DNA of 64,000 bases from Naegleria gruberi. Its lineage: Eukaryota. Below are positions 15,345 through 64,000 of this stretch, one piece after another (position 1 is the stretch's first letter; the number at the start of each line of letters is the position of its first letter). Where the stretch lies: NCBI GenBank assembly GCA_000004985.1, contig GG738918.1. One strand, given 5' to 3'. The notes beneath the pieces were generated by a model, which was given only the letters and a program-made list of their open reading frames with translations, ran no database searches and had not been told where the DNA came from. The position numbers and the translations under genes are program-made.

Positions 15345-16515
15345 ATGACGAAATCAAATCATCATAAATTCAGGTTACCACTTGTTTTATCCGTTTTATT
15401 AGTAGTGGTAGTGATGGTAAATTGTCATCGTTCTATTATCAAAGATAAAATCAAAGGAGGAGAAAATATGAAAAATATTAAATTGATGGATCATTCTAGT
15501 CATCCGTATGGATTTTTCGAATCGGAACAATTTAAAGAAAGAAGTGGATTGATTTCGAATTATTTAATAGTAACAGCTTCAAAGAATTTTGAAAAGGATT
15601 TGCAATATTCACATGTACATTTGAAGAATGAAAGTTTGCCATTTGCTCCGAATCAGAAATTGAGTGGAAATTTAATTAGAGTGACAAGTGTCAGTTCTCA
15701 TTTTCATGTGTTGGCACCACATGGAAGATGTTGTCAGCCTTCTACTACGAATTCTTTCACAGACACACCTTGTAAGGAAAGAACAAGTGATACAGCCAAG
15801 CTCAATGATTGTATTGTAGCAACCAATGCAGGATTTTTTGATGTGGCCAATGGCTATTGTTTGGGAAAGGTTATTTCAAATGGAAAAGTTTTAAATGATT
15901 ATGGGAGAGTTCATCCAAATGCTGCCTTTGGATTAATTGATGATGGCAAAGGAAATGCTCAATATGTTTTTGGATATTTGAATCAAACTGATTATGAAAA
16001 ATTGAAAATCACTCAACTAGTTCAAGTAGGTAATTCTTCAATGTTAACTAGTAATTTATTTTACAATCTTTAAAACAAAGGGAGTTGTATGGTTGGTGAG
16101 AGAAGGAAAGTCCTACATTAATGAATCAGTTAAAATTGAAAAAACTTCAACTGGATTTATAGAAGAGGCTGCTCCTCGTGTTGCCATTGGAAACGATGCG
16201 AATGGAAATTTGCTGATTCTTCAAATGGATGGATATGAACCACTCAAATGGGGTTTGAATTTGTATCAATTTACTGATTTATTGCTCTCCCTTGGATTTA
16301 AGAATGCTATAAATGTTGATGGTGGAGGTTCTGCAACTACCTATATTAAGGATCACGACAAGTTATTTGTAAGTAATTCTCAAGTAGCAAATTCAATCTT
16401 AAATTTATAGAATACATGTTCTGACACATGTTTAGAGTTTAAGGGGAACATGTGTCCTAATTCTTATCTCGGAAGATGTGAACGACATGTAACGACAATC
16501 TTTTGCATGAAATAA
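15345..16515 (+). CDS. secreted phosphodiester glycosidase (NAGPA/'uncovering enzyme' domain, DUF2233 family), 3 exons: join(15345..16025,16081..16368,16411..16515)
   Basis: Signal peptide (LPLVLSVLLVVVVMVNC). The motifs ATNAGFFD…, PRVAIGNDANGNLLILQMDG and NVDGGGSATTY match the NAGPA fold. A 55-nt intron (gtaggt…aaag) joins the first two ORFs in frame. A 42-nt intron (gtaagt…tatag) adds a Cys-rich terminal mini-exon, NTCSDTCLEFKGNMCPNSYLGRCERHVTTIFCMK*. Confidence 0.65.
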
Positions 16516-16773: not shown

Positions 16774-19700
16774 ATGATGAAGGTTCTCTCACCCTTACAA
16801 CTAATTTCAATCATTAGCTGTTTCGTCCTGTTTCTATTCATCACAACCAACGCTCTAATAAATCCCTCAAATCCATCTTCTGATACAACAACATGGGATC
16901 TGGACAATGAAATTTGGTTTGCTCAATCCGCACCACTAACAGGTCCTTCCAAGAGGTAAGTATTGGAATTTCATACAAATTTCATTAATTGGAAATTTCC
17001 CGCCCAATTTTAAATTCAAATATTTAAAAAAAATATTAACATCGTGATGACCACATAAAAACAACATGTTCTTGTTTGGTGGTTCATAGACTTGGAATTG
17101 AAATGCGGGATGGTATTTTGACTGCCTTTAATGAATTCAATGCACTTGGAGGTGTTTTTGGAGGTAAAAAGTTGAAACTCTTAACTCTAGATGATGCCTA
17201 CGAACCAACCAACACAAAGGTGAATACCAATTTGCTTCTCTATAATATTACTCCTCCGAATACGTCAACATTGAATCAGGCTATTTTCAATAATAGTATC
17301 GCATTGGATGAGGTAAAAGGAAGAAAATACTTTGGCTTGATTGGTTTTGTTGGTACTCCAACAGTGCAGAATGTTTTTACTGATGTGCTGAGTCAGGTTT
17401 GGCCTCTGATTGGATCATTCACTGGAGTTGGTTGGCTTCGAACACCTTTCTATCCAAATATTATTAATATTCGTGCTTCGTATGATGACGAAACTGCTGC
17501 TATGGTTGAGTGGCTGGTAAATGTCAAATTGATAAGAAGGATTAGTATCATGTATCAGAATGATGCTTTTGGTAATGCTGGCTTGTCAGGAATTAATAGA
17601 TCATTGGTGAAGAGATTGAACATTTCGCTCTGTTCTAGTGGTACCTTCCCAAGAAATACTCTGCAGGTTGAGGATGCTTTCAATACAATTGGTAAATGCA
17701 ATCCAGAGGCAATAGTTTTGATTGGAACCTATGCTCCTCTTTCGAAATATATAAGATTGGTTAAGGATGTAGCCTTCTCCCCTTATAATTCAACACTTGG
17801 ATACAGCAAGGCCAATCAGATTACTTTCCTTACTGTGAGTTTTGTTGGATCATCAGCATTGACAGAAGATTTATCCTCCTATCAACCTCCTTCTCTTGCC
17901 TATGGAAAGACCTATTATACGGACAATGTTGTAATTTCTCAAGTGGTTCCAAGTCCAATGGATACCAGCTATCCCATTGTTTCATCCTATCAACGTTCTA
18001 GAAAGGAGTATGCTAAAAATTTGGGACTTGATCCATCACTTGTGTCGTTTACTTTTATTGAGCTAGAGGGTTATTTAGTAGGAAAACTTGTGTTTACTGT
18101 GCTCAAAAACATGATAGGATCATTAACAAGGTCTAACTTTATTGCTAGTATATATTTCGACTTTACATCTGGTGTTAGTGATGTAACAAATGCTGGTGGT
18201 TATTTCAATTTTGAATCGGTTCAAGTTGGTAGATACAAATATTGCAATGCTGTCAATTTGTACGATCATTTCCTTTCACCTAGCAATCAAACAGTAGTAT
18301 CTGGTTCATGTTCTGATAATTGTAATCAAGGACTTAAAATTATTTACCTCAGTAATATAGAGCTCAAGAACAATACTAACATTAGATTTAATATTTTCAG
18401 GGACTTTTCGTGGTATGACACCCAAAAATGTATTTCAGACACTGCTCAAATTCAAAAACAAATTATAATAGGTCAATCTATTTTATCAACCTCTTTGAGA
18501 GATCAATTTATTACTGTGGGTATTAATGCTGCTCTTTCAAAAAGAAATAGTAATTATACAAGAAATATTGAACTCAAAACACTATATCACGATGATTCAG
18601 CATCAATGTTGAAAAATGTTGTAGAACTGAAAACTCTCCATGAAAGTGTTGCATTTGTAGGGGTTTCTGCTGAGAGTATTAATTTGGACAGTTCAAATAC
18701 CAATTCAACCATAGATATTAGAGGATATTCAGAATTTTCAAATATTCCTTTATTTGGGGTGCGTTCAACAAATAGTATGGTATTGAGAAATACATTTGTT
18801 TCATCTTTTATTCATGTATTTCCATCAATAATGGATCAATTGGGTACCGTAATAGATTATAGCATGAAAAATGGAGAGAATAGAATAAGTATCGTCTATA
18901 GCAGTTCAAATTCAAATTCAGTCGAGGTTAGACAATTGTTAAAGTCTATTCTGGATTCGATTGGTATAGAGACCGATAGCGAGGTTGATGCCACTGAAAC
19001 AATTTCATTAGACTCAATTATTAATCAACTCAGTTCTAACACTGCTAACCCTCACTCCATCTTTCTTACTTTGAGTAATCCAGACCAAATTCTCAGTATC
19101 ATCTCACAAATCAAAAAGACCTATTCGAATTCTAGCCCACTATTTAGAAAGGGATTATCTGTTTATTTGATCAATTCACTATTTGATTCGAGTGTTGAAG
19201 CTATTTTTTCAACACCACTTTCTTTGATTGTCGATGAAAACTTGAGTGTAAAGTATGTGAGCCATCTTCCAGGATCCTACAACTCTACTCTTCAAGTAAT
19301 AACAGATTTTGAAAATTCAATGGATACATATTTTCCTTCAATTAATTATAGAAATAATACTGCTTATCTTGAGGGCTATATTATTGGAGCAATGATCTCT
19401 GCATTTATCGATAGTAGTGGAGGTAATTTAGACGCTAAAGGGCTATTGAACTACATGTATACTGTACAGCAAGTAACTTCTGCTGGTGTAAGCTTTGGAA
19501 AGCTGTCTGTTGGATCCAGCCCTTGTTCATTAGGATTAAGAACAAACTATATCTATGCTTACAATCAAAAATCACAGACTTTTTCTGAATTCAATATTCG
19601 AAACTATGATATGAATGGGTGTGGTCTTGTTAAATATAAGAATAGCAAAAAGCGTGCTGCTCCTACAATAGATATTTCCTCATTAGAACAACCTTTGGTG

Positions 19701-22046
19701 TTTGCCAGATTAATACCTTTCTCTGGTGATGAATCATTGAGTTCTTCAAAACTAAGTTTACTAAATGACGTAATCGATGCAGATGACTACTCGAAAGGAC
19801 TTTCATCTTACATAAACGTATACAATACCAAAACTACTAACCAGAAAATTCAAATAAGAACAGAATATTTCGGGTTTACAGATAGTAGATGGAGTCTTGA
19901 AACTAAGGTGAAAAATATGATAACTAGACAGAAGGTATTTGCATTTGTAACTGGTTTTTCTAGTGATGAAGATTTTGCGACAATTGACAATATCAAACAA
20001 ATTCTTACAACATATGATACGCCAATGCTTACAACTTCCAATTCTTTAGAATTGCGAAAACCATTCTCCAAATATTTTATCAATATGAAATCCTCTGTGT
20101 TAGATGAAGTTGCATCTCAAATTTCTTATTTCAAGAATTATGGATCTATTGCAATTATTTATCACAATATTCCTTACTGGACCAACCAATCAATTCCATT
20201 AATAGCAGAGTATTTGGAATATAATAGTATTTCAATATCTTTAATACAAGGCTTTAGTGGCAGCAGTGATTTTAGTTCATTGGGAGTTAAACTTCAAGAA
20301 GGAAATATTCAATCAATTGTTTTGATATCTGGGTCATCAATGTCAGCTTCATTCATATCTTCCTTGATTATGTATCAAACAACATATACGCCTAATATTG
20401 GAATTCTATCGGAAGCATATAATAATGACTTTGTTTCAAAGACCTTCACTGTTAACAATTACAAGTCTGCTCTATTTGCTCATAACTTCCTCTATTTGTC
20501 CACAATTACCTTTGCTCCAAAGATTTACAGCTCTGATATTTGTTCATTGTCAACCAGTTCTCTACATACTGACAAACAGAATTCTTTTATCTCACTATTC
20601 ATGTCTAACTACAATTACAATAGTACAGCAACACACATGACATTGGAAGGTTACTCTACAGGATTTTTCATTGAAACACTCCTTAATAGAATTTACCAAG
20701 AAATGGGAATTACGAAACTGAGTACTGATGATCTATTTTCAGGAATTTATTCTGCTCAAACATTTGATATTTCTGGATTGAATACTTTTGGACCATTTGG
20801 GTTGGAATGCTCCAGTCAATCAAGTCAATTAACAACAAATCAAACTTCTTCTTCTTGTAATCAGAAAAGTACAACAACTTGTGATTGCAACCAAGCCCCA
20901 AGAAAAGTCTACTTGAGCAGAGTCAATATCGTTCCAACAGAAAATTATTACACTTTCACTGATATTGATTATGCATTCGATTTCAGCAGTTCATGTGGTG
21001 TGAGTGTTGTCAAACCTGTGCTATCGACTACTGCAATTGTTTTGATTTCATTGGCTGGGTTCTTTGTCATTCTGCTCGTTATTATTGCCATATCAATCGC
21101 TTATGTTTGTATTTCAAGATCAGAAAGTAATACCAAGAATGCACCTAAAACTGGTAACATTTGCTGCTGCTTTACAGATATTCAGAACTCGACCGTTTTA
21201 TGGGAAAAGTGTGAAAAGGGAATGAGAGAAGGTCTCAAATTGCACAATGATGTTCTGCGTAATCAACTCAACTTATTCAAAGGTTTTGAGGTCAAGACTC
21301 AAGGAGACTGTTTCTATGTCGTATTCAAGGATCCACTGGATGGAATAGATTGGGCAATGAGCTGTCAACACGAATTAATGTCCATTGCTTGGCCATCCGA
21401 ACTATTACAAATGTATGATTGTAGAACAGAGTTTAATAATGAAACCAAGGAGATAGTTTGGAATGGAATTAGAGTTAGAATGGGCTTGCATTTTGGTTAT
21501 GCAGAGAAGATCTTTGACAAGGTAGTGAACAGACCAGACTACTTTGGTAATACTATCAATGCAGCTGCTAGAATTGAGGCTTCTACCCAAGGTGGTCAAG
21601 TTTTAATTAGTGAAGATATGTTCTCAGAGTTGTGGAAAATTCATGGAACTAATTTATTCAAATCCATCACTTTAAAGGAAGATAATCAAGCAACTTATTT
21701 GGAAACCATTAGTCCTTCATTTAAAAGTGTGAATGGTATAGGAGAAAGCAAAAAATCCAAGGATTTCCAGGCAATATTCAGCACAAAAGGAAGATCTATC
21801 AAATATAGTGAAAATACAGAATCAACTAAATCAGAAGATAGAAAGTTGAAATACCATGCAAACGATCTTGGAGAATTCAAGCTTAAAGGATTGCAAGGAA
21901 TGATAAGATTATTTGAAATCAAATCGGATAAAATATTGGAGAGAAAATACAGTGAAAATTTGAGAAATACTGAAGTAACAAAATTAGATATGTTAAAACA
22001 AGGTTCCCAACTAAAGTCAACTCGTACCATCCTTCCTCTAAACTAA
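16774..22046 (+). CDS. receptor-type adenylyl cyclase: signal peptide + LivK/ANF-receptor-type periplasmic-binding-protein ectodomain (~1000 aa) + single TM + class III cyclase domain; join(16774..16955,17090..22046)
   Basis: Exon 1 encodes a signal peptide (MMKVLSPLQLISIISCFVLFLFITTNA) and the start of a Peripla_BP_6-like motif (FAQSAPLTGPSK). A 134-nt intron (gtaagt…catag) joins in frame to …LGIEMRDGILTAFNEFNALGGVFGGKKLKLLTLDD… The TM helix is AIVLISLAGFFVILLVIIAISIAYVCI. The cyclase core is CCCFTDIQNSTVLWE…FEVKTQGDCFYVVF…RPDYFGNTINAAARIE. The substrate-specifying K (in VKTQGD) and D (in PDYFGN) indicate ATP rather than GTP. Confidence 0.75.
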
Positions 22047-22478: not shown

Positions 22479-23480
22479 ATGACTAAACTACCACTGAGTG
22501 TCCTCTGCACTCTCTGTTTCACATTATTTCTCTTCCTCCACTCTATCAACTGTTTAGTGATATCTCCAAAAAAGGGAATGGCATTTCCAAACTCTGGAGC
22601 TCCACAAACTAATTCTTACAAAGATTTGGCGCAATCGTTGAATGTTGCTTGGTGTTATAATTGGGGAAATTCTGCTCCTTCCACTGGACTGCCATCTGTC
22701 ACTTCATATGTTCCACAAATTTGGGGAAGTGGTTCAATTAATAATGCAACCATGACAAAGTTGGCAAATTTGAATCAACAAGGAATGGATAATGTCTTGT
22801 TGGGATTTAATGAACCTGATTTGAGCGAGCAATCGAATTTGACTCCACAACAAGCAGTTAATTTGTGGCCGAAATTGATGGAAACTAAACGAAAGTTGGG
22901 TTCTCCTGCTATGGCTGGTTATGCTCCTTCCACTGATTCATGGCTTTCTCAATTCATGACTCTTGCAACTACATCTAAATTGCAAGTTGACTTTATTGCT
23001 GTCCATTGGTATGGAACTCCACAATATGGCTCATCATTTCTTCAAATGGTAGACGAAACTTACAAGAAATACAAACTCCCAATTTGGGTAACTGAATTTG
23101 CAGCTGCCGATTGGAGTGCAACTGCTTCAAAACCAGCTCCATACACTCAGAAAGATGCCATCAACTTTATGAATGTGACAGTGAGAGGTTTATTAGAAAG
23201 ATCATATGTGGAAAGATTTTCATGGTTTGCACCAATTAATCCAAAGGATCCCATCATGGGATTCAGTGCTGTGTTCAATGAGGATGGAAGCTTGACTGAG
23301 GTTGGAAAATTATATGCCTCCTTGGGTGTTAGTAATGATAATAATAATAATGGAAATCCAGCAATTTCAAAGAAAGTTTCAACTTCAACTAGAACTTCAA
23401 TGGGAAGTGGAGTGAATGTTATCTCTTTGAATGTCTTGATGATTATTCTTGCCTTATTTGTACTAATTGTAAATTATTAA
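22479..23480 (+). CDS. secreted, probably GPI-anchored clan GH-A glycoside hydrolase (GH128 / Glyco_hydro_cc-like, putative beta-1,3-glucanase)
   Basis: ATG at 22479 after an A9 run. Signal peptide present. Catalytic-Glu motifs GFNEPD (acid/base) and IWVTEFA (nucleophile) are spaced as in GH5/26/128. The C-terminus has a Ser-rich stretch followed by a hydrophobic tail (LNVLMIILALFVLIVNY*) typical of a GPI signal. Confidence 0.6.
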   Translation: MTKLPLSVLCTLCFTLFLFLHSINCLVISPKKGMAFPNSGAPQTNSYKDLAQSLNVAWCYNWGNSAPSTGLPSVTSYVPQIWGSGSINNATMTKLANLNQQGMDNVLLGFNEPDLSEQSNLTPQQAVNLWPKLMETKRKLGSPAMAGYAPSTDSWLSQFMTLATTSKLQVDFIAVHWYGTPQYGSSFLQMVDETYKKYKLPIWVTEFAAADWSATASKPAPYTQKDAINFMNVTVRGLLERSYVERFSWFAPINPKDPIMGFSAVFNEDGSLTEVGKLYASLGVSNDNNNNGNPAISKKVSTSTRTSMGSGVNVISLNVLMIILALFVLIVNY

Positions 23481-31196: not shown

Positions 31197-33575
31197 ATGT
31201 CTCTCCATAATAATTTGACAAGATGTCTTGTCATTTTCTGCTTGATCTTGAACCTTACTCAAGCGAATTTTCTGCTCGCATTCGAAGGTTCTGTTGGGAC
31301 AGGCACATGTGGCTTCAAAGATGGTGTTCCAAAGGACCAAGCACTCATTGGAAAGGCAACTTCATTATTCGAATCTCTAGTTGGTGACCTGTACTTTTAC
31401 GATACCTCAAACTTTCGTATAATGAAAGTTTCACAACAAGACAATCTTGTTTCCTCCATCATTGGCAATGGAAAGCTTGGTTATACAGAAGATCATTGTC
31501 AAGCAGATAAATGTGGTCTCACATTCGTGGATGGAATCTCACTAGTTTCAGATAAAATCTTTTATTTTGATAGAATTATAACACCAACGAGTAGTACAAG
31601 AATTCTGAGAGTGGTTGGATCTTCTGGTGTAGTGAATACTATTTGGCAAGTTGACTATTGGTTTCCAACAATGAATGACAATGAAAAGAGGACGTTTGTA
31701 GTGAGTGATGATGGAAAGTATTTATTCTTTAATCATGATAAGTTTATTTGGAAGATTAATTTGGCAAGTATGAAGATGGAGCTGTTTTATACTGAGCCTT
31801 TATCTAACAAGATTACAACGTTTACAATTTCAAGTAGTGGATTGATTTATTCAACTTTCAAAAATCAGTTTAGTTTCTTATATAGAAGTTTCAATATGGA
31901 TCCATCATCTGCCATTCTACTTACGAGTACATCTAACAACAATGATGCCTATCAAATCAACAAGGATTTGGGATTTGTTTCTCTTCCCAAATCAATTTAT
32001 TGCTCTAACTGTATATTTAGTTCAATTCAAACTTATGGAAATACTTTCAATTTCACGTTTAGTTTGAATTTTCAAGCTGTATACGCAGGAATAGCAGATC
32101 AATATCTAGTCCTATTGAGAAACAAATATTCCAATAATAGAATTGAATTCTCCAATCTTGATAATGGTTTCTTTTTCATTATTGATGATTGTAAGATTAC
32201 AAAATCAGATTACACTTCCCTTAATCAAGGTTGCACTGCCAGTTGCTCCAATCAAGGAACCTGTGTTGGACAAATTTGCAGTTGCAATGATGGATGGTTG
32301 GGTGATTCAATTTGTTCCAAATTTACATGTGAAAAAGTTGATGGTTGTGGCTTGAATGGACATTGCATTGGACCTAATCAGTGCGAATGTAAGAAGGGAT
32401 GGTCTGGTCCTAGTTGCAACGATTTTGATTGTTCGATGGCTAAGAATTGCAGTGGTCATGGCAAGTGTATTGGTTCAAATTATTGTGAATGTCAATCGGG
32501 ATGGCAAGGTTCTGACGATTGCTCTCAATTTTCATGTGAAAAGATTACGTGTCAGAATAATGGACAATGTAATGGTCCTAATCAATGTGAATGTCCATCT
32601 GGTTACAAGGGATCTCCTGATTGCTCAACAGTTTCTTGTGAACTAGTTGGAAATTGCAATTCACATGGATCTTGTGTCGCTCCAAATACTTGTAAATGTA
32701 AGGAGGGATGGAGTGGTAATGACTGCTCTCAATTTACATGTTCTCCATCGTGTCAGAATGGAGGAGTGTGTACAGCTCCTAATCAATGTAATTGTCCATC
32801 TGGATATAGAGGTAGTTTAGATTGTTCGAAACCTTCTTGTGAAGATCAGGGAAATTGTTATCTGAACGGAGAATGTGTTGGTCCAAATACTTGTAAATGT
32901 AATGTTGGTTGGCTTGGATCTAATTGTAAAGATCCAGATTGTCAATTATCATGCAATAATAGAGGAAAATGTTCGAAACCATACGAATGTGAATGTGAAG
33001 ACGGATGGAAAGGAATCAATTGTGAAGTATTTAGCTGTGAAAAACTCAATAATTGTAATAGTGCTAATCACCATGGCTCATGTATTGGTCCAAATATTTG
33101 TAAATGTAACGAAGGATGGAAAGGATTTCAATGTGATATTCCAACTTGTGAATTGGTTAGAAATTGTTCGAATGTTGGCAGTTGTGTATCTGCCAATACG
33201 TGCTCCTGTCCTTCAAAAAAGTATGGATCTAGCTGTCAATTCGATTTCGATTGTTTTGGTTTGGCACCTGACAATCCAAGTGTTTGTGAAAGTAGAGGAA
33301 CATGTGTAGGTCCAAATAATTGCAATTTTGGAGGTATTATTGCTTTCGTTGTAATATTCGTGATTCTTTTGGTAATTGTCTTTGTAGGAATTGTTAGCTT
33401 TATTCTGTTAGTTCTTTATAGAAAGCGAAAAAGAGAACAAAAGGAAGAAGAAAAACTCTTACAAAAGGCAATTTTAGCTGGAACTATTATAGCAGCAGCT
33501 GAACAACTGGCATCAAACAATAATGACCCAATAGATATTGAAAATAGAAACAACAGAGAAGGCGAAGGTGTTTAA
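31197..33575 (+). CDS. type I membrane protein: signal peptide + ~330-aa N-terminal beta-repeat region + ~14 tenascin-type EGF-like repeats + TM + short cytoplasmic tail
   Basis: ATG at 31197. Repeats of the form C-x-C-x2-GW-x-G-x2-C occur about every 31 aa (CECKKGWSGPSC, CKCKEGWSGNDC and so on). The TM helix is IIAFVVIFVILLVIVFVGIVSFILLVL, followed by the stop-transfer YRKRKREQKEEEK. Confidence 0.7.
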   Translation: MSLHNNLTRCLVIFCLILNLTQANFLLAFEGSVGTGTCGFKDGVPKDQALIGKATSLFESLVGDLYFYDTSNFRIMKVSQQDNLVSSIIGNGKLGYTEDHCQADKCGLTFVDGISLVSDKIFYFDRIITPTSSTRILRVVGSSGVVNTIWQVDYWFPTMNDNEKRTFVVSDDGKYLFFNHDKFIWKINLASMKMELFYTEPLSNKITTFTISSSGLIYSTFKNQFSFLYRSFNMDPSSAILLTSTSNNNDAYQINKDLGFVSLPKSIYCSNCIFSSIQTYGNTFNFTFSLNFQAVYAGIADQYLVLLRNKYSNNRIEFSNLDNGFFFIIDDCKITKSDYTSLNQGCTASCSNQGTCVGQICSCNDGWLGDSICSKFTCEKVDGCGLNGHCIGPNQCECKKGWSGPSCNDFDCSMAKNCSGHGKCIGSNYCECQSGWQGSDDCSQFSCEKITCQNNGQCNGPNQCECPSGYKGSPDCSTVSCELVGNCNSHGSCVAPNTCKCKEGWSGNDCSQFTCSPSCQNGGVCTAPNQCNCPSGYRGSLDCSKPSCEDQGNCYLNGECVGPNTCKCNVGWLGSNCKDPDCQLSCNNRGKCSKPYECECEDGWKGINCEVFSCEKLNNCNSANHHGSCIGPNICKCNEGWKGFQCDIPTCELVRNCSNVGSCVSANTCSCPSKKYGSSCQFDFDCFGLAPDNPSVCESRGTCVGPNNCNFGGIIAFVVIFVILLVIVFVGIVSFILLVLYRKRKREQKEEEKLLQKAILAGTIIAAAEQLASNNNDPIDIENRNNREGEGV

Positions 33576-41851: not shown

Positions 41852-44374
41852 ATGAAAAGTCTATGGATTGATAGGATCATAAGAGACTTTTTCAAGTATA
41901 TTACCAAATCAACGGAAGATGACATGAAGAAATTTTGTATAAAACAACAAGTGGCTGCCCAAGGGTTTCCGCTCATGGTATCAACCAACGTTTCCATCAT
42001 TATCATGTTGGCAATAGTCTATGTGGAGTGGAATAGGAATATTCTCTTATCCTTTCTGTATATGACTTTACTTGACTTGCTGATTGATATTTCAATCATT
42101 GTATTGGTGAAAGTTTTGGCCACAAGGCAAAACATGGGAGCTTTGGAAATATTATTCTTCTTTAAGAATATTCTTCTAGGAACAGTGAGGATGTGCTCGC
42201 AGTGCTATCTAGGATTTAATGTGCCACTGTGGGTGATAAGTGCCTATTCACTAATTGTCATTTCACATGTTTCATTCTTTAAGAATTTTGTATCGGTGGT
42301 TTCCTGTCTTGTATTGATTCTTTCATCAGTGATGGGACAAGTTCTATCTGTATATATTGGAAAGGAGAATTTTGAGAGAGGTCAATTCATCACGAATCTC
42401 CATCAGCAAGCTCAGTCGCCTTACGTTTACTATTCAAATGACTATTATTATTACATTGGAAGAATTTTGGAGAGTACAATGTTGCAATTGACTGTTCTGA
42501 TAATTGGCTACATATTTGCAAAGAATGTGGAAAGGCAATATAATAATAGTCTGACCTTTCAAATTGAGGCAAAGAATGAAAGAATTTTGAACGAATCCAA
42601 AACTAGGTTCATCTCTAATTTGAGTCATGAAATGAGGTATGTGTTTTTTTAATAGTTCAATACTTAATTTTGATAAAGAAATCCACTTCATGGGATGATA
42701 GGCATTTCGGAAATTATGAAATTAGAGCTGAAAAAGACGATTTGTGCACTTTCACAAGTCGATTTTACAAAACCTGAAAGAGCAGAGGAGAAAATAACAG
42801 AAGCTGTCAATTCTAGTGAAGCAAATTTAGAAATGATTAAGGATATCAACAGTAATGCACAAATGCTTCTCCAAATTTTCTCAACATCATTGCAAATCAG
42901 TAATATGGAACTAGGAAAACTAAATTTGAATTATACTCCATTCAACGTTGTGGAAATGGTGGACTCTCTCGTTTCAGTATTTTCAACAATAGCTAAGGAA
43001 AAAGGACTGATACTACAATCCTTCTTTGATTTTGAAAATGTTCCAGTAATTGTAAAAGGTGATCATATTCGGCTCTCACAGGTATTAGTCAACTTTGTAT
43101 CCAACTCTGTGAAATACACCAAAAAGGGTAAAGTTTATTTGGATGTGAGCATGATAAAAAGTACAGACAAGGATTTCCCATTCAATGATCAAGCTATTGA
43201 AATTGATTTGGGAAAGGAAATTATTTCTGGCAATCAATTAGAATATATCAAGATTGTTTGTCAAGATACTGGAATAGGTATTCCAAAAGAAGAGCTTGGA
43301 AAGTTGTGTAAACCTTCCCATACTATACATCATACTGAAGGATCTGGACTCAATAATGTAGAATATGAAAAAGTCTATAGACACTTAATGGGTGGACAAA
43401 ATTCATTCAATGATAGACATGGAATAGGTCTCAGTTTATCTTTAAATTTCATTCATCTCATGAAGGGAAAATTGAATATCGAGAGTGAGCTCGATAAAGG
43501 AACCACCTTGACTCTCTACATTCCAGTAATCAAATGCTCTCCAGATGAATGTTCCAAGGTACACAACACTATATTTTCGAAAATTTCATGCCTCAAACAA
43601 TTGGGATCTTCTGCAATATCTAGGATAGTTATTCTAGAAGATGATCCTGAATATTTATCAATTCTAACAAAACTGTGCAATCAAATTCTCAAACCACCAA
43701 CCATTTCACACATTGAAAAACACAATGTTGTTGAATCTCTAACTGATATCACTGCTAACACACTAATTCTCTACAATCACAAAGATTACAAAGATGTAAT
43801 TGAAAGATTTTCTGGAAAACTCATTTCTAACAAGATAATTCCAATATTTAGACGAGGAGAAAAAATTCCAACCAAAGCAAAACCAATTGTATTGCCATCT
43901 AGAGTGGAAAGTATCATTAAGACTATTTATCACTGTCTATCTAACACTACCAAGAAGCTTCTCTCACCCAGCTCTGCAACAAGCACCATGGATATTGATA
44001 AGGCATTCGCTCTTCCACACAATAATAGGATTCTTGTAGTGGATGATAATGCAATCAACAGAAAACTCCTGAAGAAAGCACTAAACATGCTTGGATATTC
44101 GGCAGATATGGCATCGGATGGCTCTGAAGCGTTAGATCTCATCAAGAAACAACCAAACAGTTATGATATCATTTTCATGGATTTGTTAATGCCGAATATG
44201 GGAGGAAAAGATAGTTGTAAGTTTATGAGGGAATGGGGATGCAGATCTCAGATCATTGCTGTCACAGCAAATATTTGGGCGAGTTCCCAATCTTTGACTC
44301 AAAACGGATTTAGCTCGGTATTAAGGAAACCATTCACCATTGATGATATCAAACAAGTACTGAAACATGAGTAA
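41852..44374 (+). CDS. hybrid sensor histidine kinase (multi-TM sensor + HisKA + HATPase_c + receiver); join(41852..42636,42679..44374)
   Basis: Exon 1 encodes a ~5-6 TM N-terminus and ends inside the H-box (FISNLSHEM|R). A 42-nt intron (gtatgt…ataaag) joins in frame to RNPLHGMIGISEIM. The ATP-lid motifs are DTGIGIP and GIGLSLSLNF. The receiver domain is RILVVDDNAINRKLL…IIFMDLLMP…VLRKPF. Confidence 0.75.
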
Positions 44375-50235: not shown

Positions 50236-50462
50236 ATGGACGTGATAATTTTCGGGATGGTTTTACATGATGAAAGCACCAAACTTTCACAGCATCACCT
50301 CATCATTATCTAAATAGTAGTATTAATAGTAATTTTTATTGGAAGATTATATTCATGAAATTGGAAATTATTTTTCATCAATTAAAATCACAAGTTGGTG
50401 TATCATCATCTGATCCTTCACCAACCATCATCATTATTGTTTTCCATCAATAATGATAGTAT
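50236..50462 (+). repeat. dispersed structured repeat, copy 2 (5' truncated ~230 bp)
   Basis: Matches the 5' part of the elements at 36826 and 55591, including the flanking tatggacRtgatRattYtcgg prefix shared with copy 1. Confidence 0.65.
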
Positions 50463-55590: not shown

Positions 55591-56090
55591 GGAGTGGTTT
55601 TACATCATGAAACCACCAAACTTTCACATCATCATCTCAACATGATCTATATAGTAGTAATAATAGTAATTTTTATTGGTGGATTATCATCATGAAATTG
55701 GAATTTATTTTTCATGATGGAAAATCATAAGTTGGTGTTCCAGCATCGGATCATTCACCAACATCATTATTGTTTTCCATTAATAATAATATTTGTAGAT
55801 ATTAATTTGTAGTAATATAATTTTGGTGAAATGTAAAAATTTTCACTAAATTCATCATCACTGCTGGATCTACTGAACAAGTTGGAAAACTGTCAATGTA
55901 GTATTGTTCGGAATGGTCAATAGTAGGTAAGAGAATTTTCTCTTATCAATTTTGGATATTTGATGCCACCAGAGTTGATTCATAGCCCAATTACAAATCA
56001 AACAGCAATAAAACAACAATTCATAATGTTTATTATGTTATTAAATGTATAATTTCGAGTCTTGTAGCATAATTTGTGAAAATAATGGAT
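55591..56090 (+). repeat. dispersed structured repeat, copy 3 (plus a partial internal re-duplication at ~56150..56275)
   Basis: Collinear with copy 1 except for the ~190-bp internal indel. The sub-segment …catcatcactgc(t/c)(g/a)gat…ttggaaaact(g/t)tcaat(g/c)tagtattgttc…atggtcaat is repeated again 60 bp downstream. Confidence 0.7.
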
Positions 56091-58183: not shown

Positions 58184-58626
58184 GGGTTTGGGTTGGGTTT
58201 GGGTTTAGGGTTTGGGTTGGGTTTGGGTTTGGGTTTGGGTTTGGGTTTGGGTTTGGGTTTGGGTTTGGGTTTGGGTTTGGGTTTGGGTTTGGGTTTGGGT
58301 TTGGGTTTGGGGTTTGGTTGGGTTTGGGTTTGGGTTTGGGTTTGGGTTTGGGTTTGGGTTTGGGTTTGGGTTTGGGTTTGGGTTTGGGTTTGGGTTTGGG
58401 TTTGGGTTTGGGTTTGGGTTTGGGTTTGGGTTTGGGTTTGGGTTTGGGTTTGGGTTTGGGTTTGGGTTTGGGTTTGGGTTTGGGTTTGGGTTTGGGTTTG
58501 GGTTTGGGTTGGGTTTGGGTTTGGGTTTGGGTTTGGGTTTGGGTTTGGGTTTGGGTTTGGGTTTGGGTTTGGGTTTGGGTTTGGGTTTGGGTTTGGGCTC
58601 TGGGTTTGGGTTTGGGTTTGGGTTTG
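58184..58626 (+). repeat. interstitial telomere-type (GGGTTT)n array with occasional variants (GGGTTTAGGG, GGGTT, GGGCTCT)
   Basis: About 70 direct hexamer repeats, G-strand on +, ending directly at a 50-N gap. Confidence 0.9.
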
Positions 58627-58676
58627 NNNNNNNNNNNNNNNNNNNNNNNNNNNNNNNNNNNNNNNNNNNNNNNNNN
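58627..58676. other. assembly gap (50 N)
   Basis: Run of n characters. Confidence 1.
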
Positions 58677-58744: not shown

Positions 58745-60014
58745 AATAAATGATATTTTCGCTAACTACTCATCATTTGCAACATTTTCATATGTGTTTT
58801 ATTGACTGGAGTGATGTTTTTGATATCTGGATTTTCACCTTTCCATCCTTAAAGTCAACCTTAAAATATCAACCTTTACCTTACTATATTATCAAATTAC
58901 ATTTTAAAACTCTAAAATTGTATTCTACAACATTATTTGAGTTGTTAAACATGATGGAAGTGTTTCATAGAGAGGTCATTTTCCAGATTTTCATTCATGA
59001 CCATAGTTGACTAGATGGTATGAAAAGGATGAAATCATGAATATGAAAGTTAAAATAAACTTTATATTCTATCTCTACACATCGAATGGAGCATGTACAT
59101 GTATAATTTGTTGATTGAAGTGATATATTTGATAGACTTGATCTTACTTGTCTTTCCTTCAGTCAACTTTGTAAAATCAACATTTACATTCCCATGGTAC
59201 CATTTCTGATTATTAGTACATGAAATTAAACTCTATATCATTATAGATCATCTACATTATGATGGTAAAGTTTCAATAGTGGTCTTTTTTCAAAATTTCC
59301 ACCTTTTCATCATAGTTGACCATGTGTGATTGAGGGAAGAAATCTCTAAATATGAAAGTCAAAATAAATTTGATATTCGATGTTTACTAATCAAATGAAA
59401 CATTTTCATGGCAGGATTTAATATGTTTTGATGAGAAACTCAAAAGTTATAGTTGACCTATTTTACCTCACATCTTACCTTTTCACTCAATACTTTTATA
59501 TCTACAGACTTGAACTTTTGAAATTTCATATGAAAGTGATTATGAATGTTGTTAATGATGATATTTACTATATAATCTCATTAAACGATTTTGAAATTAT
59601 CATTCTTCCTATGGTTTCATTTTAACAATTTTAATCTGACATTATTTACAAAGTTAATATTTTATAAATTGAAAAACTAAATATACTACATTGTTCTACT
59701 CATCATTTACAATCGAATGATATAAAATTTAATGATATTTGAATAAGTTTATAATTTTGGGCTAGGGTTTGAACGTTGGGTTTAGAAGATTTCTATTTTT
59801 AATTCTGGGTTTGGGTTGGTGTTTATTGGGTCAATTTTATACATTTTCATACAATATATTGATGTTGAAATGTACCCTTTGATGTTTCTGGATGGGTAGC
59901 ATGATTTAGTGATGATTCCGACAATAAAAATCATATATTGTTCATATAATTATCAAGATATTGTATAATTTATTAAATATCAAGTGGGTAATATTGAATA
60001 TTCTCTATAAGAGC
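58745..60014 (+). repeat. subtelomeric tandem satellite, unit ~650 bp (one diverged unit 58745..59085, one full unit 59086..59750, then degenerate telomere-like junction 59755..59830 and 185 bp unique)
   Basis: 59086..59750 is about 88-90% identical to 62778..63440, including the paired small ORFs 59428..59625 and 63124..63354. The unit boundary is …ctactcatcatttacaatcgaatg|gagcat…. Confidence 0.8.
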
Positions 60015-62777: not shown

Positions 62778-63440
62778 ATGGAGCATTTTCATATGTAATT
62801 TATTGATTGAAGTGATATATTTGATAGAGTTGGTCTGACTTGTCTTTCATTAAAGTCAACTTTGTAAAATCAACATTTACATTCCCATGGTACCATTTCT
62901 GATTCTTATGATATGAAATTGAATTGTACATCATTATAGACCATCTACATCATGATGGTAAAGTTTCAATAGGTGGTCCTTTTTCAAGATTTCCACCTTT
63001 TCATACAAGTTGACCATATGTGTGATTGAGGGAAGAAATCTCTAAATATGAAAGTCAAAATAAATTTGATATTCGATTTTTACTAATCAAATGGAACATT
63101 TTCATGTCAGGATTTAATATGTTTTGATGAGAAACTCAAAAGTTATTGTTGACCTATTGTACCTCACAACTTCCCTTTTCACTCAATACTTTTATATCTA
63201 CAGACTTGAACTTTTGAAATTTGATATGAAAGTGATTATAAATGTTGTTAATGATGATATATACTATATAATCTCACTAAAGGATTTTGAAATTATCATT
63301 CTTCCTATGGTTTCATTTTACAAATTTTTAATCTTACATTATTTACAAAGTTAATATTTTATAAATTGAAAAACTAAATATAATACATTGTTCTACTCAT
63401 CATTTACAATCGAATGATATAACAATCAATAAATTGGCCT
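62778..63440 (+). repeat. subtelomeric tandem satellite, terminal unit, abutting the telomere through a ggcctagggtttgaac…tgggtctgg junction
   Basis: Collinear with 59086..59750. Confidence 0.8.
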
Positions 63441-63481
63441 AGGGTTTGAACTTTGAAACATTGGGTCTGGACTTAAATATT

Positions 63482-64000
63482 GGGTTTGGGTTTGGGTTTG
63501 GGTTTGGGTTTGGGTTTGGGTTTGGGTTTGGGTTTGGGTTTGGGTTTGGGTTTGGGTTTGGGTTTGGGTTTGGGTTTGGGTTTGGGTTTGGGTTTGGGTT
63601 TGGGTTTGGGTTTGGGTTTGGGTTTGGGTTTGGGTTTGGGTTTGGGTTTGGGTTTGGGTTTGGGTTTGGGTTTGGGTTTGGGTTTGGGTTTGGGTTTGGG
63701 TTTGGGTTGGGGTTTGGGTTTGGGTTTGGGTTTGGGTTTGGGTTTGGGTTTGGGTTTGGGTTTGGGTTTGGGTTTGGGTTTGGGTTTGGGTTTGGGTTTG
63801 GGTTTGGGTTTGGGTTTGGGTTTGGGTTTGGGTTTGGGTTTGGGTTTGGGTTTGGGTTTGGGTTTGGGTTTGGGTTTGGGTTTGGGTTTGGGTTTGGGTT
63901 TGGGTTTGGGTTTGGTTTGGGGTTGGTTGGTTTTAGCTTTTGGTTTGGGTTTGGGTTTGGGTTTGGCTTTGGGTTTGGGTTTGGGTTGGGTTTGGGTTTG
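63482..64000 (+). repeat. terminal telomere array (GGGTTT)n, G-rich strand 5'→3' toward the window end (chromosome right end)
   Basis: More than 80 near-perfect hexamer repeats run to the last base. Variants appear only in the final 100 bp (GGTTTGGGGTTGGTTGG, GGCTTT). Confidence 0.9.

What the first reader, a model, noticed from the sequence alone, without database searches (positions are those of the whole stretch)
16774..22046. Receptor-type adenylyl cyclase with a ~1000-aa LivK/ANF-receptor-like ectodomain directly coupled to a class III cyclase
The architecture is signal peptide, periplasmic-binding-protein fold, single TM and cyclase, with no kinase-homology domain. It is otherwise typical of kinetoplastid receptor cyclases, not of amoebozoan or fungal cyclases (CHASE-type, 12-TM or LRR/PP2C types). 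The cyclase core reads K in VKTQGD and D in RPDYFGN, which predicts ATP specificity. The ectodomain is about three times the length of a single LivK module, so it may contain tandem binding lobes. An amino-acid- or small-ligand-gated cAMP source at a chromosome end would be a new kind of sensor for this lineage.
Basis: partly seen in the sequence, partly recalled or inferred. Interest (0 to 1): 0.7.

Follow-up and report, generated by a model that had tools for sequence, protein, structure and literature searches.

The report
Naegleria receptor adenylyl cyclase, three flytraps
This is a real, intact gene of the amoeboflagellate Naegleria gruberi for a cell-surface adenylyl cyclase of the trypanosome receptor type. 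Its outer part has three tandem ligand-binding "Venus flytrap" modules instead of one or two, so it is an interesting but expected relative of a known family rather than a new kind of sensor.

Summary
Window 16774-22046 (+) is one two-exon gene (intron 16956-17089) encoding 1712 aa. The order is signal peptide, about 1345-aa ectodomain, one TM helix (aa 1375-1403), then a class III cyclase domain 10-14 residues later. There is no kinase-homology domain.

It consists of three homologous LivK-type periplasmic-binding-protein (Venus flytrap, VFT) modules.

All six canonical catalytic residues are present: D1424, D1467, K1463, D1544, N1551 and R1555. They predict a homodimeric, ATP-specific cyclase. 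The closest solved structures are the Trypanosoma brucei GRESAG4 cyclases.

The lineage premise is wrong. The protein is 100% identical to Naegleria gruberi XP_002670180 ("uncharacterized protein"). Naegleria is a heterolobosean, on my own knowledge in the same supergroup (Discoba) as kinetoplastids.

Relatives with one to three VFTs occur in Naegleria, Willaertia, Acrasis, Euglena and kinetoplastid-like sequences. So this is a new member of the receptor-type cyclase family that the literature calls a trypanosomatid hallmark. No ligand is known for any member.

Ligand gating is inferred. The membrane-distal module M1 is the best-conserved and is the likeliest sensor.

The window does end in telomere-like repeats, but the gene lies about 36 kb inside them.

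The parts
16774..16955 (+). Exon 1. It holds the start codon and the predicted signal peptide (aa 1-27, window 16774-16854; the cleavage site after TNA is inferred). It also holds the first strand and loop of VFT module 1 (EIWFAQSAPLTGPSK).
   Evidence: sequence and translation. (hydrophobic segment aa 4-26). (the public model P0001 uses the same exon). (aa 48-109 align to the N-terminus of the bacterial binding protein 4kv7).
16956..17089 (+). Intron of 134 nt, GTAAGT...TAG, phase 2. Splicing rebuilds codon 61 (AG|A = Arg).
   Evidence: The spliced product is identical to P0001 across the junction.
17090..22046 (+). Exon 2, ending in the stop codon. It encodes the rest of the ectodomain, the TM helix and the cyclase in one uninterrupted frame.
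16891..18422 (+). VFT module M1 (aa 40-505; it spans the intron). This is the membrane-distal type I periplasmic-binding-protein fold, followed by a Cys-containing beta-hairpin (C472-N473 ... C508). It is the best-conserved ectodomain module and the most likely ligand sensor.
   Evidence: Pfam Peripla_BP_6 4e-16, 60 bits against a cutoff of 31.7. Sequence match to PDB 4kv7 at 1.7e-39. AF2 model with Foldseek top hit 4kv7 at E 6.9e-25, TM 0.85. 64-66% identity to the paralogue and orthologues, against 38-39% for M2 and M3.
18423..19682 (+). VFT module M2 (aa 506-925). This is the divergent middle PBP-fold module with its own hairpin (C873 ... C905).
   Evidence: hhalign M1 vs M2: probability 100% over 358 columns, or 92.6% using the Naegleria clade only. 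M2 vs M3: 99.8%. Pfam ANF_receptor 2e-4, below the cutoff. The M2 profile hits 4kv7 at 6e-6. AF2 gives an alternating beta/alpha pattern with pLDDT mostly 80-90.
19683..21011 (+). VFT module M3 (aa 926-1368). This is the membrane-proximal PBP-fold module ending in CDCNQ ... C1363.
   Evidence: Pfam Peripla_BP_6 2.5e-7, 31.1 bits against a cutoff of 31.7. Weak PF25493 Peripla_BP_A-cyclase hit, 0.004. The orthologue P0003 scores 28.9 bits on PF25493, above the cutoff. hhalign M1 vs M3 99.5%. The AF2 model matches LivK-type binding proteins at E 1e-13 to 1e-10.
21030..21116 (+). Single transmembrane helix (aa 1375-1403). In the model the helix runs aa 1374-1409 and leads almost directly into the first cyclase strand.
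   Evidence: Kyte-Doolittle peak up to 3.3. (helix at model residues 460-495).
21144..21932 (+). Class III cyclase homology domain (aa 1413-1675). The core is aa 1413-1580. A heterolobosean-specific low-complexity insert is about aa 1581-1651 (window 21648-21860). The final strands LGEFKLKGLQGMIRLFEIK are aa 1652-1675.
   Evidence: Pfam Guanylate_cyc 3.7e-22, 79 bits against a cutoff of 21.9. PDB sequence hits 1fx4 at 2.4e-23 and 1fx2 at 3e-22. Foldseek top hits 1fx4 and 1fx2. The insert is shared with Willaertia and Acrasis and absent in Euglena.
21177..21572 (+). Span containing the six catalytic codons: D1424 (21177-21179), K1463 (21294-21296), D1467 (21306-21308), D1544 (21537-21539), N1551 (21558-21560), R1555 (21570-21572).
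   Evidence: positions, and conservation in P0002-4, P0006 and P0007. (aligned to the FTDIE / EVKTVGD / YDYYGRTSNMAAR motifs of GRESAG4).
21933..22043 (+). Short, poorly conserved cytosolic C-terminal tail (aa 1676-1712).
   Evidence: low pLDDT, no conservation.

Best explanation
The gene encodes a type I membrane receptor adenylyl cyclase of the family best known from trypanosomes (ESAG4/GRESAG4, the receptor-type ACs). Here it is in its heterolobosean form.

**Shown**
- The order is a signal peptide and a glycan-rich ectodomain made of three homologous LivK-type Venus-flytrap modules (M1-M2-M3). Each module is followed by a conserved Cys-containing beta-hairpin.
- Then come one TM helix and, only 10-14 residues later, a class III cyclase domain.
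- That domain carries both metal-binding Asp, the adenine-specifying Lys/Asp pair and the transition-state Asn/Arg in a single chain.

**Follows from established class III cyclase biochemistry**
- A chain with all six residues must form a head-to-tail homodimer with two symmetric active sites.
- The K/D pair selects ATP, so the product should be cAMP.

**Inferred**
- A small extracellular solute binds in the cleft of a flytrap. M1 is the likeliest site, because it is as conserved as the catalytic domain and closely resembles a bacterial solute-binding protein.
- Lobe closure changes the geometry or dimerisation of the ectodomains.
- The short, rigid TM-to-cyclase connection passes this to the catalytic dimer and changes cAMP synthesis.
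- M2 and M3 are more divergent. They probably act as a stalk or dimerisation scaffold, or as secondary ligand sites.
- cAMP would then act through the PKA-R/RegA-type machinery reported for Naegleria.
For: **Gene model and topology:**

**Three homologous VFT modules**
- Pfam hits.
- Profile-profile probabilities of 92.6-100% over 311-372 columns.
- AF2 models with pLDDT 77.7 and 67.0.
- Foldseek matches to LivK/LivJ-type binding proteins and class C GPCR flytraps.
- M1 matches PDB 4kv7 at 1.7e-39.

**Cyclase**
- Guanylate_cyc at 79 bits.
- All six catalytic residues are present and conserved in relatives.
- The best solved matches are T. brucei GRESAG4.3 and 4.1, which are experimentally characterised adenylyl cyclases. 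Sequence E-values are 2.4e-23 and 3e-22, against 1e-9 for the next hit, a bacterial cyclase. They are also the top Foldseek hits.

**Family context**
- A contiguous M3-TM-cyclase match to 1200-1300-aa proteins. P0121 has Peripla_BP_6 + PF25493 + cyclase, and its cyclase hits GRESAG4.3 at 5e-50.
- Named relatives occur in Acrasis, Willaertia and Euglena.

**Constraint:** M1 is 64-66% identical and the cyclase core 60%, against 38-39% for M2 and M3.

**Literature**
- Trypanosomal ACs have the same topology with one or two VFT/PBP domains and are activated by dimerisation (PMC6027212, PMC10470820).
- PkaR and RegA are present in N. gruberi (PMC4399386).
Against: - No ligand has been identified for any receptor-type AC. 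The trypanosomal enzymes are known to be activated by acid, hypotonic or proteolytic stress rather than by a defined ligand (PMC6027212, PMC10470820).
- I could not establish whether the residues that hold an alpha-amino acid in LivJ or class C receptors are kept. The alignment to LivJ was unreliable.
- M2 and M3 score at or below Pfam cutoffs and may not bind anything.
- The structure models are of moderate confidence and monomeric. The alignments behind them are shallow (8-10 sequences).
- There is no expression or activity data for this gene.
- The 70-aa insert inside the cyclase domain is unusual, and its effect on activity is unknown.
Confidence: 0.6

Rival explanations
1. The enzyme is a stress-gated cyclase rather than a ligand-gated one. 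The large ectodomain holds the enzyme in an inactive, non-productive arrangement. Membrane or environmental stress (pH, osmolarity, proteolysis of the ectodomain) relieves this and lets the catalytic domains dimerise. This has been proposed for trypanosomal cyclases. On this reading the flytraps are structural, not ligand sensors.
For: The literature on the closest characterised relatives reports activation by acid, hypotonic and proteolytic stress, and no ligand (PMC6027212, PMC10470820). M2 and M3 are divergent (38-39% identity, Pfam scores at or below the cutoff). Naegleria faces osmotic and pH shifts in fresh water and soil.
Against: M1 is conserved as strongly as the catalytic core. It remains closely similar to a bacterial solute-binding protein over the whole fold. 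That is more constraint than a mere spacer would be expected to show. Willaertia keeps an M1-like module as its only ectodomain.
Confidence: 0.25
2. The protein is a guanylyl cyclase or a dual-specificity cyclase, as the automatic database name of its orthologues ("Guanylate cyclase domain-containing protein") might suggest.
For: The UniProt-style names of the orthologues P0003 and P0041. The Pfam family covers both activities.
Against: The specificity positions are Lys1463 and Asp1544, the adenine-selecting pair, not the Glu/Cys(Arg) pair of guanylyl cyclases. They align with the same residues in GRESAG4 adenylyl cyclases. The database name is only the Pfam domain name.
Confidence: 0.05
3. 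The gene is a catalytically dead or pseudogenised receptor, or a gene-model artefact that fuses a secreted binding protein to a separate cyclase gene.
For: There are no expression data. An unusual 70-aa low-complexity insert lies inside the cyclase domain. The paralogue model P0002 lacks the last cyclase strands.
Against: The frame is uninterrupted for 1651 codons, from the ectodomain through the TM helix to the cyclase. All six catalytic residues are intact. The same collinear architecture is conserved in N. lovaniensis, N. fowleri, Acrasis kona and metagenomic relatives. The insert is itself conserved in position across Heterolobosea.
Confidence: 0.05

Closest known systems
Kinetoplastid receptor-type adenylyl cyclases (T. 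brucei ESAG4/GRESAG4.1/4.3, T. cruzi TcAC, Leishmania RAC). Catalytic domain structures: PDB 1FX2 and 1FX4.
   Same: - Type I topology with a signal peptide, an ectodomain of LivK-type PBP/VFT domains and a single TM helix.
- A very short linker and no kinase-homology domain.
- A class III catalytic domain with all six catalytic residues in one chain, implying a homodimer. The K/D pair predicts ATP specificity.
- These are the best sequence and fold matches among solved structures.
- There is an extra segment at the position of the trypanosomal delta-subdomain.
- The N-terminal VFT of kinetoplastid-like relatives hits the same bacterial protein (4kv7) as M1 does.
   Different: - Three VFT modules and an ectodomain of about 150 kDa, against one or two modules and about 90 kDa (PMC6027212, PMC10470820).
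- The delta-subdomain segment is about half as long.
- A ~70-aa insert lies before the last strands of the catalytic domain and is shared only with other heteroloboseans.
- The host is a free-living amoeboflagellate, not a parasite.
- Only a few paralogues are apparent, rather than a large expanded family.
Heterolobosean and euglenid homologues, all uncharacterised: Acrasis kona KAL0486290 (P0047), Willaertia magna KAL9650595 (P0056), N. lovaniensis and N. fowleri orthologues, Euglena gracilis transcripts (P0117, P0124, P0148).
   Same: - Same family and collinear architecture.
- Acrasis P0047 also has M1-M2-M3-cyclase.
- Same catalytic residues and, within Heterolobosea, the same cyclase insert.
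   Different: - The number of flytraps varies. Willaertia has one M1-like module (50% identical to aa 10-516). Euglena and the kinetoplastid-like proteins have about two.
- None has been studied experimentally.
Metazoan natriuretic-peptide receptor guanylyl cyclases (NPR-A/GC-A type).
   Same: An extracellular VFT of the ANF_receptor/PBP type I fold, a single TM helix, a C-terminal class III cyclase, and activation as a dimer.
   Different: - They have one VFT.
- They carry a kinase-homology domain and a coiled-coil linker between the TM helix and the cyclase. Both are absent here.
- They have GTP-specifying residues, whereas this protein has K/D.
Protist class C-like GPCRs and other receptors with tandem VFT ectodomains (P0009-P0030: 7tm_3 fusions; Cafeteria and Carpediemonas proteins).
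   Same: They have two or three tandem modules homologous to M1, M2 and M3, with the same CNQG hairpin motif.
   Different: The output domain is a seven-helix receptor or another module, not a cyclase.
Bacterial LivK/LivJ-type solute-binding proteins, especially PDB 4kv7 (Rhodopirellula baltica "probable Leu/Ile/Val-binding protein").
   Same: M1 has the same fold, with unusually high sequence similarity (E 1.7e-39, TM 0.85).
   Different: They are soluble, single-module transport proteins. The ligand of 4kv7 is not known to me, so it does not identify a ligand for M1.
Dictyostelium adenylyl cyclase G (ACG).
   Same: An extracellular sensor, a single TM helix and a class III cyclase. It acts as an environmental (osmo)sensor in an amoeba (PMC10470820).
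   Different: On my own knowledge, the ACG ectodomain is a CHASE-type domain, not a PBP fold. No CHASE hit is found here.

Membership tests
Receptor-type adenylyl cyclase (kinetoplastid ESAG4/GRESAG4-like RAC) | Type I topology: N-terminal signal peptide, large extracellular domain, exactly one TM helix, cytosolic catalytic domain. | tested here: met
   There are only two hydrophobic segments, aa 4-26 and aa 1375-1403. Of the 19 N-glycosylation sequons, 17 lie in the ectodomain. The cyclase lies C-terminal of the TM helix.
Receptor-type adenylyl cyclase (kinetoplastid ESAG4/GRESAG4-like RAC) | Ectodomain built from type I periplasmic-binding-protein / Venus-flytrap domains (one or two in kinetoplastids). 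| tested here: met
   Three such modules are present. The fold type matches, but the copy number (3) is higher than described for kinetoplastids (PMC6027212, PMC10470820).
Receptor-type adenylyl cyclase (kinetoplastid ESAG4/GRESAG4-like RAC) | Membrane-proximal ectodomain module of the Pfam type PF25493 (Peripla_BP_A-cyclase). | tested here: inconclusive
   M3 scores 16.7 bits (E 0.004) against a cutoff of 27.2. The orthologue P0003 scores 28.9 bits, and P0006 and P0007 score 63.8 and 36.5 bits. The kinetoplastid-like P0121 scores 168.8 bits.
Receptor-type adenylyl cyclase (kinetoplastid ESAG4/GRESAG4-like RAC) | Catalytic domain directly after the TM helix, with no kinase-homology or coiled-coil domain. 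| tested here: met
   The TM helix ends at about aa 1403 and the cyclase match starts at aa 1413. No Pkinase hit was found.
Receptor-type adenylyl cyclase (kinetoplastid ESAG4/GRESAG4-like RAC) | Catalytic domain most similar to trypanosomal GRESAG4, including the delta-subdomain insertion. | tested here: inconclusive
   Similarity is met: 1fx4 and 1fx2 are the top hits by sequence (E 2.4e-23 and 3e-22, against 1e-9 for the next) and by fold. The delta-subdomain is only partial. There is an insertion at the same site relative to bacterial cyclases, but it is about 18 residues shorter than in GRESAG4.
Receptor-type adenylyl cyclase (kinetoplastid ESAG4/GRESAG4-like RAC) | Adenylyl cyclase activity as a homodimer. 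| not testable with these tools
   This is predicted only from D1424, D1467, K1463, D1544, N1551 and R1555. It needs an enzyme assay.
Class III nucleotidyl cyclase catalytic domain (Pfam PF00211) | A profile match above the curated cutoff, plus two metal-binding Asp, transition-state Asn and Arg, and a substrate-specifying pair. | tested here: met
   79.2 bits against a cutoff of 21.9. All six residues are present and conserved.
Type I periplasmic binding protein (Pfam Peripla_BP_6 / ANF_receptor clan) | A profile match above the cutoff and a two-lobed alpha/beta fold, for each module. | tested here: met
   - M1: 60.1 bits against 31.7 (met).
- M3: 31.1 bits against 31.7 (borderline).
- M2: only ANF_receptor at 21 bits against 25.4 (below the cutoff).
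- All three are homologous by hhalign. The models match LivK-type structures.
- The M2 profile hits 4kv7 at 6e-6.
Metazoan membrane guanylyl cyclase (natriuretic peptide receptor type) | A kinase-homology domain between the TM helix and the cyclase, and GTP-specifying residues (Glu/Cys). | tested here: not met
   No Pkinase or PK_Tyr_Ser-Thr hit. The specificity residues are Lys1463 and Asp1544.
Dictyostelium ACG-type cyclase | A CHASE-type extracellular sensor domain. | tested here: not met
   No CHASE family appears among the Pfam hits at E <= 1. The ectodomain is fully accounted for by three PBP modules.

The most novel reading that the evidence does not exclude
The receptor-type adenylyl cyclase family is not a trypanosomatid invention. 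It is an ancient Discoba-wide sensor family whose membrane-distal flytrap (M1) still closely resembles a bacterial solute-binding protein.

On this reading, the heterolobosean three-flytrap form is a true small-molecule (nutrient or amino-acid-like) receptor that integrates more than one extracellular cue into cAMP. It would control a life-cycle switch in Naegleria, such as the change from amoeba to flagellate or encystment.

If so, the free-living, easily grown Naegleria or Willaertia proteins would be the way to de-orphanise a receptor family whose ligands have not been found in trypanosomes.
Probability: 0.2. Interest if true: 0.7.

Novelty: new member of a known kind. Interest (0 to 1): 0.33.

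Why it matters
Receptor-type adenylyl cyclases are described in the literature as a hallmark of trypanosomatids. There they shape host immunity and parasite social motility, yet what their ectodomains sense is still unknown.

This gene and its relatives show that the same architecture exists in free-living heteroloboseans (Naegleria, Willaertia, Acrasis) and in Euglena. The number of flytrap modules ranges from one to three.

Three practical points follow:

1. **Comparative handle.** The conserved M1 module versus the variable M2 and M3 points to which part is likely to bind a ligand.
2. **Structural template.** PDB 4kv7 gives a close template for the M1 pocket.
3. **Non-pathogenic test systems.** These organisms could be used to screen for ligands.

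For Naegleria itself, the gene is one concrete candidate for coupling extracellular chemistry directly to cAMP. It does not change the general picture, because Naegleria was already known to carry many membrane-bound cyclases.

Tried and rejected
1. **Cyclase-only homologue search.** A word-index search with the cyclase domain alone returned only 388 candidates. It did not recover the protein itself, so it was uninformative about kinetoplastid relatives. I replaced it with the exhaustive profile search.
2. **AlphaFold database fold search.** afdb50 was not available, so I could not compare directly with full-length trypanosomal models.
3. **Ligand-contact residues from E. coli LivJ.** I tried to transfer Y18, S79, A100, T102, Y150, Y202 and E226, using a LivJ sequence recalled from memory. 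hhalign probabilities were 58% for M1 and 0.1% for M2 and M3. These are too weak for residue-level statements, so I make no claim about amino-acid binding.
4. **Fusion of two genes, or a hidden intron between ectodomain and cyclase.** Rejected, because the frame is continuous and the architecture is conserved in other species.
5. **Guanylyl cyclase reading.** Rejected on the K/D specificity residues.
6. **Amoebozoan or fungal origin.** Rejected on the 100% match to N. gruberi.
7. **More cyclases nearby.** None was found. The neighbours are ordinary genes.
8. **Literature search.** I found no paper linking Naegleria to receptor-type or GRESAG4-like cyclases. The N. gruberi genome paper itself (Fritz-Laylin et al. 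2010) is not in the library, so I could not check its supplement.

Full report
**What is in the sequence**

The finding's coordinates are right. An ATG at window 16774 opens a 182-nt exon that ends at 16955. A 134-nt GT..AG intron (16956-17089) follows. Exon 2 then runs uninterrupted from 17090 to the stop at 22046.

The spliced CDS is 5139 nt and encodes 1712 aa. Exon 2 lies within a 1656-codon open frame in DNA of about 33% G+C, which is far beyond chance.

The deduced protein is 100% identical to a public model, P0001. That model is XP_002670180.1 / EFC37436.1, locus NAEGRDRAFT_53734, UniProt D2W0I8. It is named "predicted/uncharacterized protein" of Naegleria gruberi. It uses the same splice junction and merely starts at the second Met.

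So the window is Naegleria gruberi, a heterolobosean.

**Topology**

Only two hydrophobic segments exist. One is N-terminal (aa 4-26, with a TNA motif suited to signal-peptidase cleavage). The other is at aa 1375-1403.

Seventeen of the 19 N-glycosylation sequons lie between them.

The cyclase match starts at aa 1413, only 10-14 residues after the membrane. In the structure model the TM helix (aa 1374-1409) leads almost straight into the first cyclase strand. No protein-kinase-like, coiled-coil or CHASE family is detected.

**The ectodomain is three flytraps**

Cutting the protein into pieces gives these Pfam results:

| Module | Residues | Pfam result |
|---|---|---|
| M1 | aa 40-505 | Peripla_BP_6, 4e-16 |
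| M2 | aa 506-925 | ANF_receptor, 2e-4, sub-threshold |
| M3 | aa 926-1368 | Peripla_BP_6, 2.5e-7, at the cutoff; weak hit to PF25493, "Adenylate cyclase, periplasmic binding protein-like domain" |

Profiles built from the family alignment show that the three modules are homologous over nearly their whole length:

| Pair | hhalign probability | Columns |
|---|---|---|
| M1 vs M2 | 100% (92.6% with the Naegleria clade only) | 358 |
| M1 vs M3 | 99.5% | 311 |
| M2 vs M3 | 99.8% | 372 |

The AlphaFold2 model of aa 28-925 has pLDDT 77.7 and pTM 0.73. It shows two successive alternating beta/alpha domains.

- Its best PDB matches are LivK/LivJ-type solute-binding proteins. The top hit is 4kv7 at E 6.9e-25 with TM 0.85 on the target.
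- The flytraps of GABA-B, mGlu and calcium-sensing receptors also match.

The model of aa 915-1712 has pLDDT 67. It places M3 on the same set of binding proteins.

Each module ends with a conserved Cys-Asn motif, a beta-hairpin and a further invariant Cys:

- M1: C472/N473 ... C508
- M2: C873 ... C905
- M3: C1327/N1328 ... C1363

So the repeated unit is flytrap plus hairpin. Disulfide stapling of the hairpin is my inference.

**The cyclase**

Guanylate_cyc matches at 79 bits against a cutoff of 21.9. All six canonical class III residues are present in one chain. They are conserved in the paralogue, the orthologues and the metagenomic relatives:

- metal-binding Asp: D1424 (FTDI) and D1467 (VKTQGD)
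- adenine-specifying pair: K1463 and D1544 (RPDYFGN)
- transition-state residues: N1551 and R1555 (TINAAAR)

From established class III cyclase biochemistry, this predicts a head-to-tail homodimer with two active sites and ATP specificity.

The closest solved proteins are the T. brucei receptor cyclases GRESAG4.3 and GRESAG4.1. By sequence their E-values are 2.4e-23 and 3e-22. The next best hit is a mycobacterial cyclase at 1e-9. The two GRESAG4 structures are also the top Foldseek hits.

Relative to bacterial cyclases, the Naegleria domain has extra residues at the site of the trypanosomal delta-subdomain. The segment is only about half as long.

The last strands of the fold (LGEFKLKGLQGMIRLFEIK, aa 1652-1675) are separated from the core by a ~70-aa low-complexity insert. 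Willaertia and Acrasis share it, and Euglena and kinetoplastid-like sequences lack it.

**Relatives**

The first homologue search found the following:

- a paralogue in N. gruberi (49% identity)
- orthologues in N. lovaniensis and N. fowleri (45%)
- collinear proteins in a JGI metagenome

An exhaustive profile search with M3 + TM + cyclase returned many proteins in which the match runs contiguously from the flytrap through the TM helix into the cyclase. Named examples are:

- Acrasis kona "adenylate cyclase" KAL0486290, which also has M1-M2-M3-cyclase
- two further Acrasis proteins
- Willaertia magna KAL9650595, with a single M1-like flytrap plus cyclase. It is 50% identical to aa 10-516.
- Euglena gracilis transcripts of about 1200 aa

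Unnamed proteins of 1200-1300 aa such as P0121 have Peripla_BP_6 + PF25493 + cyclase.

- The P0121 cyclase hits GRESAG4.3 at 5e-50.
- Its N-terminal flytrap hits the same bacterial protein, 4kv7, at 2.8e-28.

The simplest reading is one receptor-cyclase family spread over Discoba, with one to three flytraps. M1 would correspond to the kinetoplastid N-terminal flytrap and M3 to the membrane-proximal PF25493 module. M2 would be an extra middle module in Naegleria and Acrasis. This orthology of modules is inferred from score patterns, not from trees.

The same tandem flytrap ectodomain is also found fused to seven-helix receptors in other protists.

**What the literature says**

- Reviews describe this topology, with one or two VFT/PBP domains, as "a hallmark of trypanosomatids". 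They state that the role of the VFT domains and the activating signals remain unknown. Acid, hypotonic and proteolytic stress activate the enzymes through dimerisation (PMC6027212, PMC10470820).
- The large phylogenetic study of these cyclases covered only trypanosomatids and Bodo (PMC7719234).
- Naegleria is known to have 81 to over 100 cyclases (PMC9928731).
- The Euglena genome paper relates cyclase families of Euglena and N. gruberi, but not this VFT type (PMC6366073).
- I found no paper that mentions Naegleria together with receptor-type or GRESAG4 cyclases. The original genome paper is not in the library.
- PKA-R and RegA homologues are reported in N. gruberi (PMC4399386), so a cAMP output has plausible targets.

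**How it most likely works**

Shown:

- the architecture
- the triplicated flytrap
- the complete catalytic set
- family membership by similarity

Inferred:

- A solute binds a flytrap cleft.
- Lobe closure alters ectodomain geometry or dimerisation.
- The short TM-to-cyclase link passes this to the catalytic dimer.

M1 is the best candidate sensor.

- It is as conserved as the catalytic core: 64-66% identity for M1 and 60% for the core, against 38-39% for M2 and M3.
- It is very similar to a bacterial solute-binding protein.
- It is the only ectodomain module kept in Willaertia.

The main rival is stress gating without a specific ligand, as discussed for trypanosomes. I could not evaluate amino-acid specificity, because the alignment to LivJ was too weak.

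**Verdict**

The claim of a sensor type foreign to the lineage rests on a wrong guess of the organism. This is a new, uncharacterised member of a known kind of receptor.

Two points are modestly new. The family extends well beyond kinetoplastids, and heteroloboseans carry a three-flytrap form.

"At a chromosome end" is only loosely true. Telomere-like (GGGTTT)n arrays lie at 58184-58626 and 63480-64000. That is about 36 kb and a dozen ordinary genes from the cyclase.

Noticed in passing
window 58184-58626 and 63480-64000 (with N gaps at 58627-58676 and 60015-62777): There are two long arrays of the hexamer GGGTTT (74 and 87 copies, 96% matches). The G-rich strand runs 5'->3' toward the right end of the window, and the second array reaches the window end. 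This looks like the Naegleria gruberi telomere repeat. A 2013 survey stated that no information was available on Naegleria telomeres (PMC3622300). The internal array abutting a 50-N gap suggests a scaffolding join of two telomere-bearing contigs, or an interstitial telomeric block.
   Followed up: partly
window 58766-58805, 59075-59114, 59696-59735; also 63390-63420: Short related motifs (CTACTCATCATTTRCAA...) recur in the AT-rich sequence just beyond the first telomere-like array (58184-58626), in the gap-flanked stretch between the two arrays, and again just before the second array (63480-64000). They may be a subtelomeric repeat element.
   Followed up: no
window 50258-50425 and 55595-55762: A 168-nt direct repeat pair, 86% identical and 5.3 kb apart, lies in the subtelomeric part of the window.
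   Followed up: no
window 15345-16410 (+): Two adjacent ORFs (15345-16073 and 16093-16410) both hit the phosphodiester glycosidase family NAGPA, at successive profile positions 2-69 and 78-153. They are probably one secreted-enzyme gene split by a short intron or a frameshift, directly upstream of the cyclase.
   Followed up: partly
window 42695-44374 (+), possibly with 41852-42652 (+): A hybrid histidine kinase (HATPase_c plus a response-regulator receiver) is another environmental-sensing gene in the same subtelomeric region. The upstream ORF has no Pfam hit and may be its sensor part.
   Followed up: no
window 31197-33575 (+): A 792-aa protein is packed with teneurin/Delta-like EGF repeats (EGF_TEN at 2.9e-40). 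It looks like a surface adhesion-type protein in an amoeboflagellate.
   Followed up: no
window 22479-23480 (+): A secreted glycosyl hydrolase (Glyco_hydro_cc at 5e-53) lies immediately downstream of the cyclase. It has an N-terminal signal sequence and a hydrophobic C-terminus, which may be a GPI or TM anchor.
   Followed up: no
homologues P0008, P0042-P0045 and P0050-P0052 (not in the window): Many top hits to the cyclase profile are long proteins with four to seven matched stretches, most likely tandem class III cyclase domains in one chain; P0008 was shown to have five. This is a different and striking cyclase architecture. Their source organisms were not checked.
   Followed up: no
homologues P0009-P0030 (not in the window): The same two- or three-module tandem flytrap ectodomain is fused to 7tm_3 (class C GPCR) domains in several protist transcriptomes. 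It is fused to other outputs in Cafeteria and Carpediemonas. The tandem-VFT ectodomain therefore looks like a mobile sensor cassette.
   Followed up: partly
M1, aa 44-513 (window about 16903-18446), against PDB 4kv7: The eukaryotic module M1, and the N-terminal flytrap of a kinetoplastid-like cyclase (P0121), are unusually similar to one planctomycete solute-binding protein. The E-values are 1.7e-39 and 2.8e-28, with shared blocks such as RASY..ETAAMV, YQND.FG, FL.VSFVG, TQVVP and LEGY. This could reflect a strongly constrained ligand pocket or an old bacterial origin of the module.
   Followed up: partly
window 21695-22030 (-): A 111-aa ORF lies antisense to the 3' end of the cyclase gene. 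It was not tested for homologues; I read it as a chance antisense ORF.
   Followed up: no
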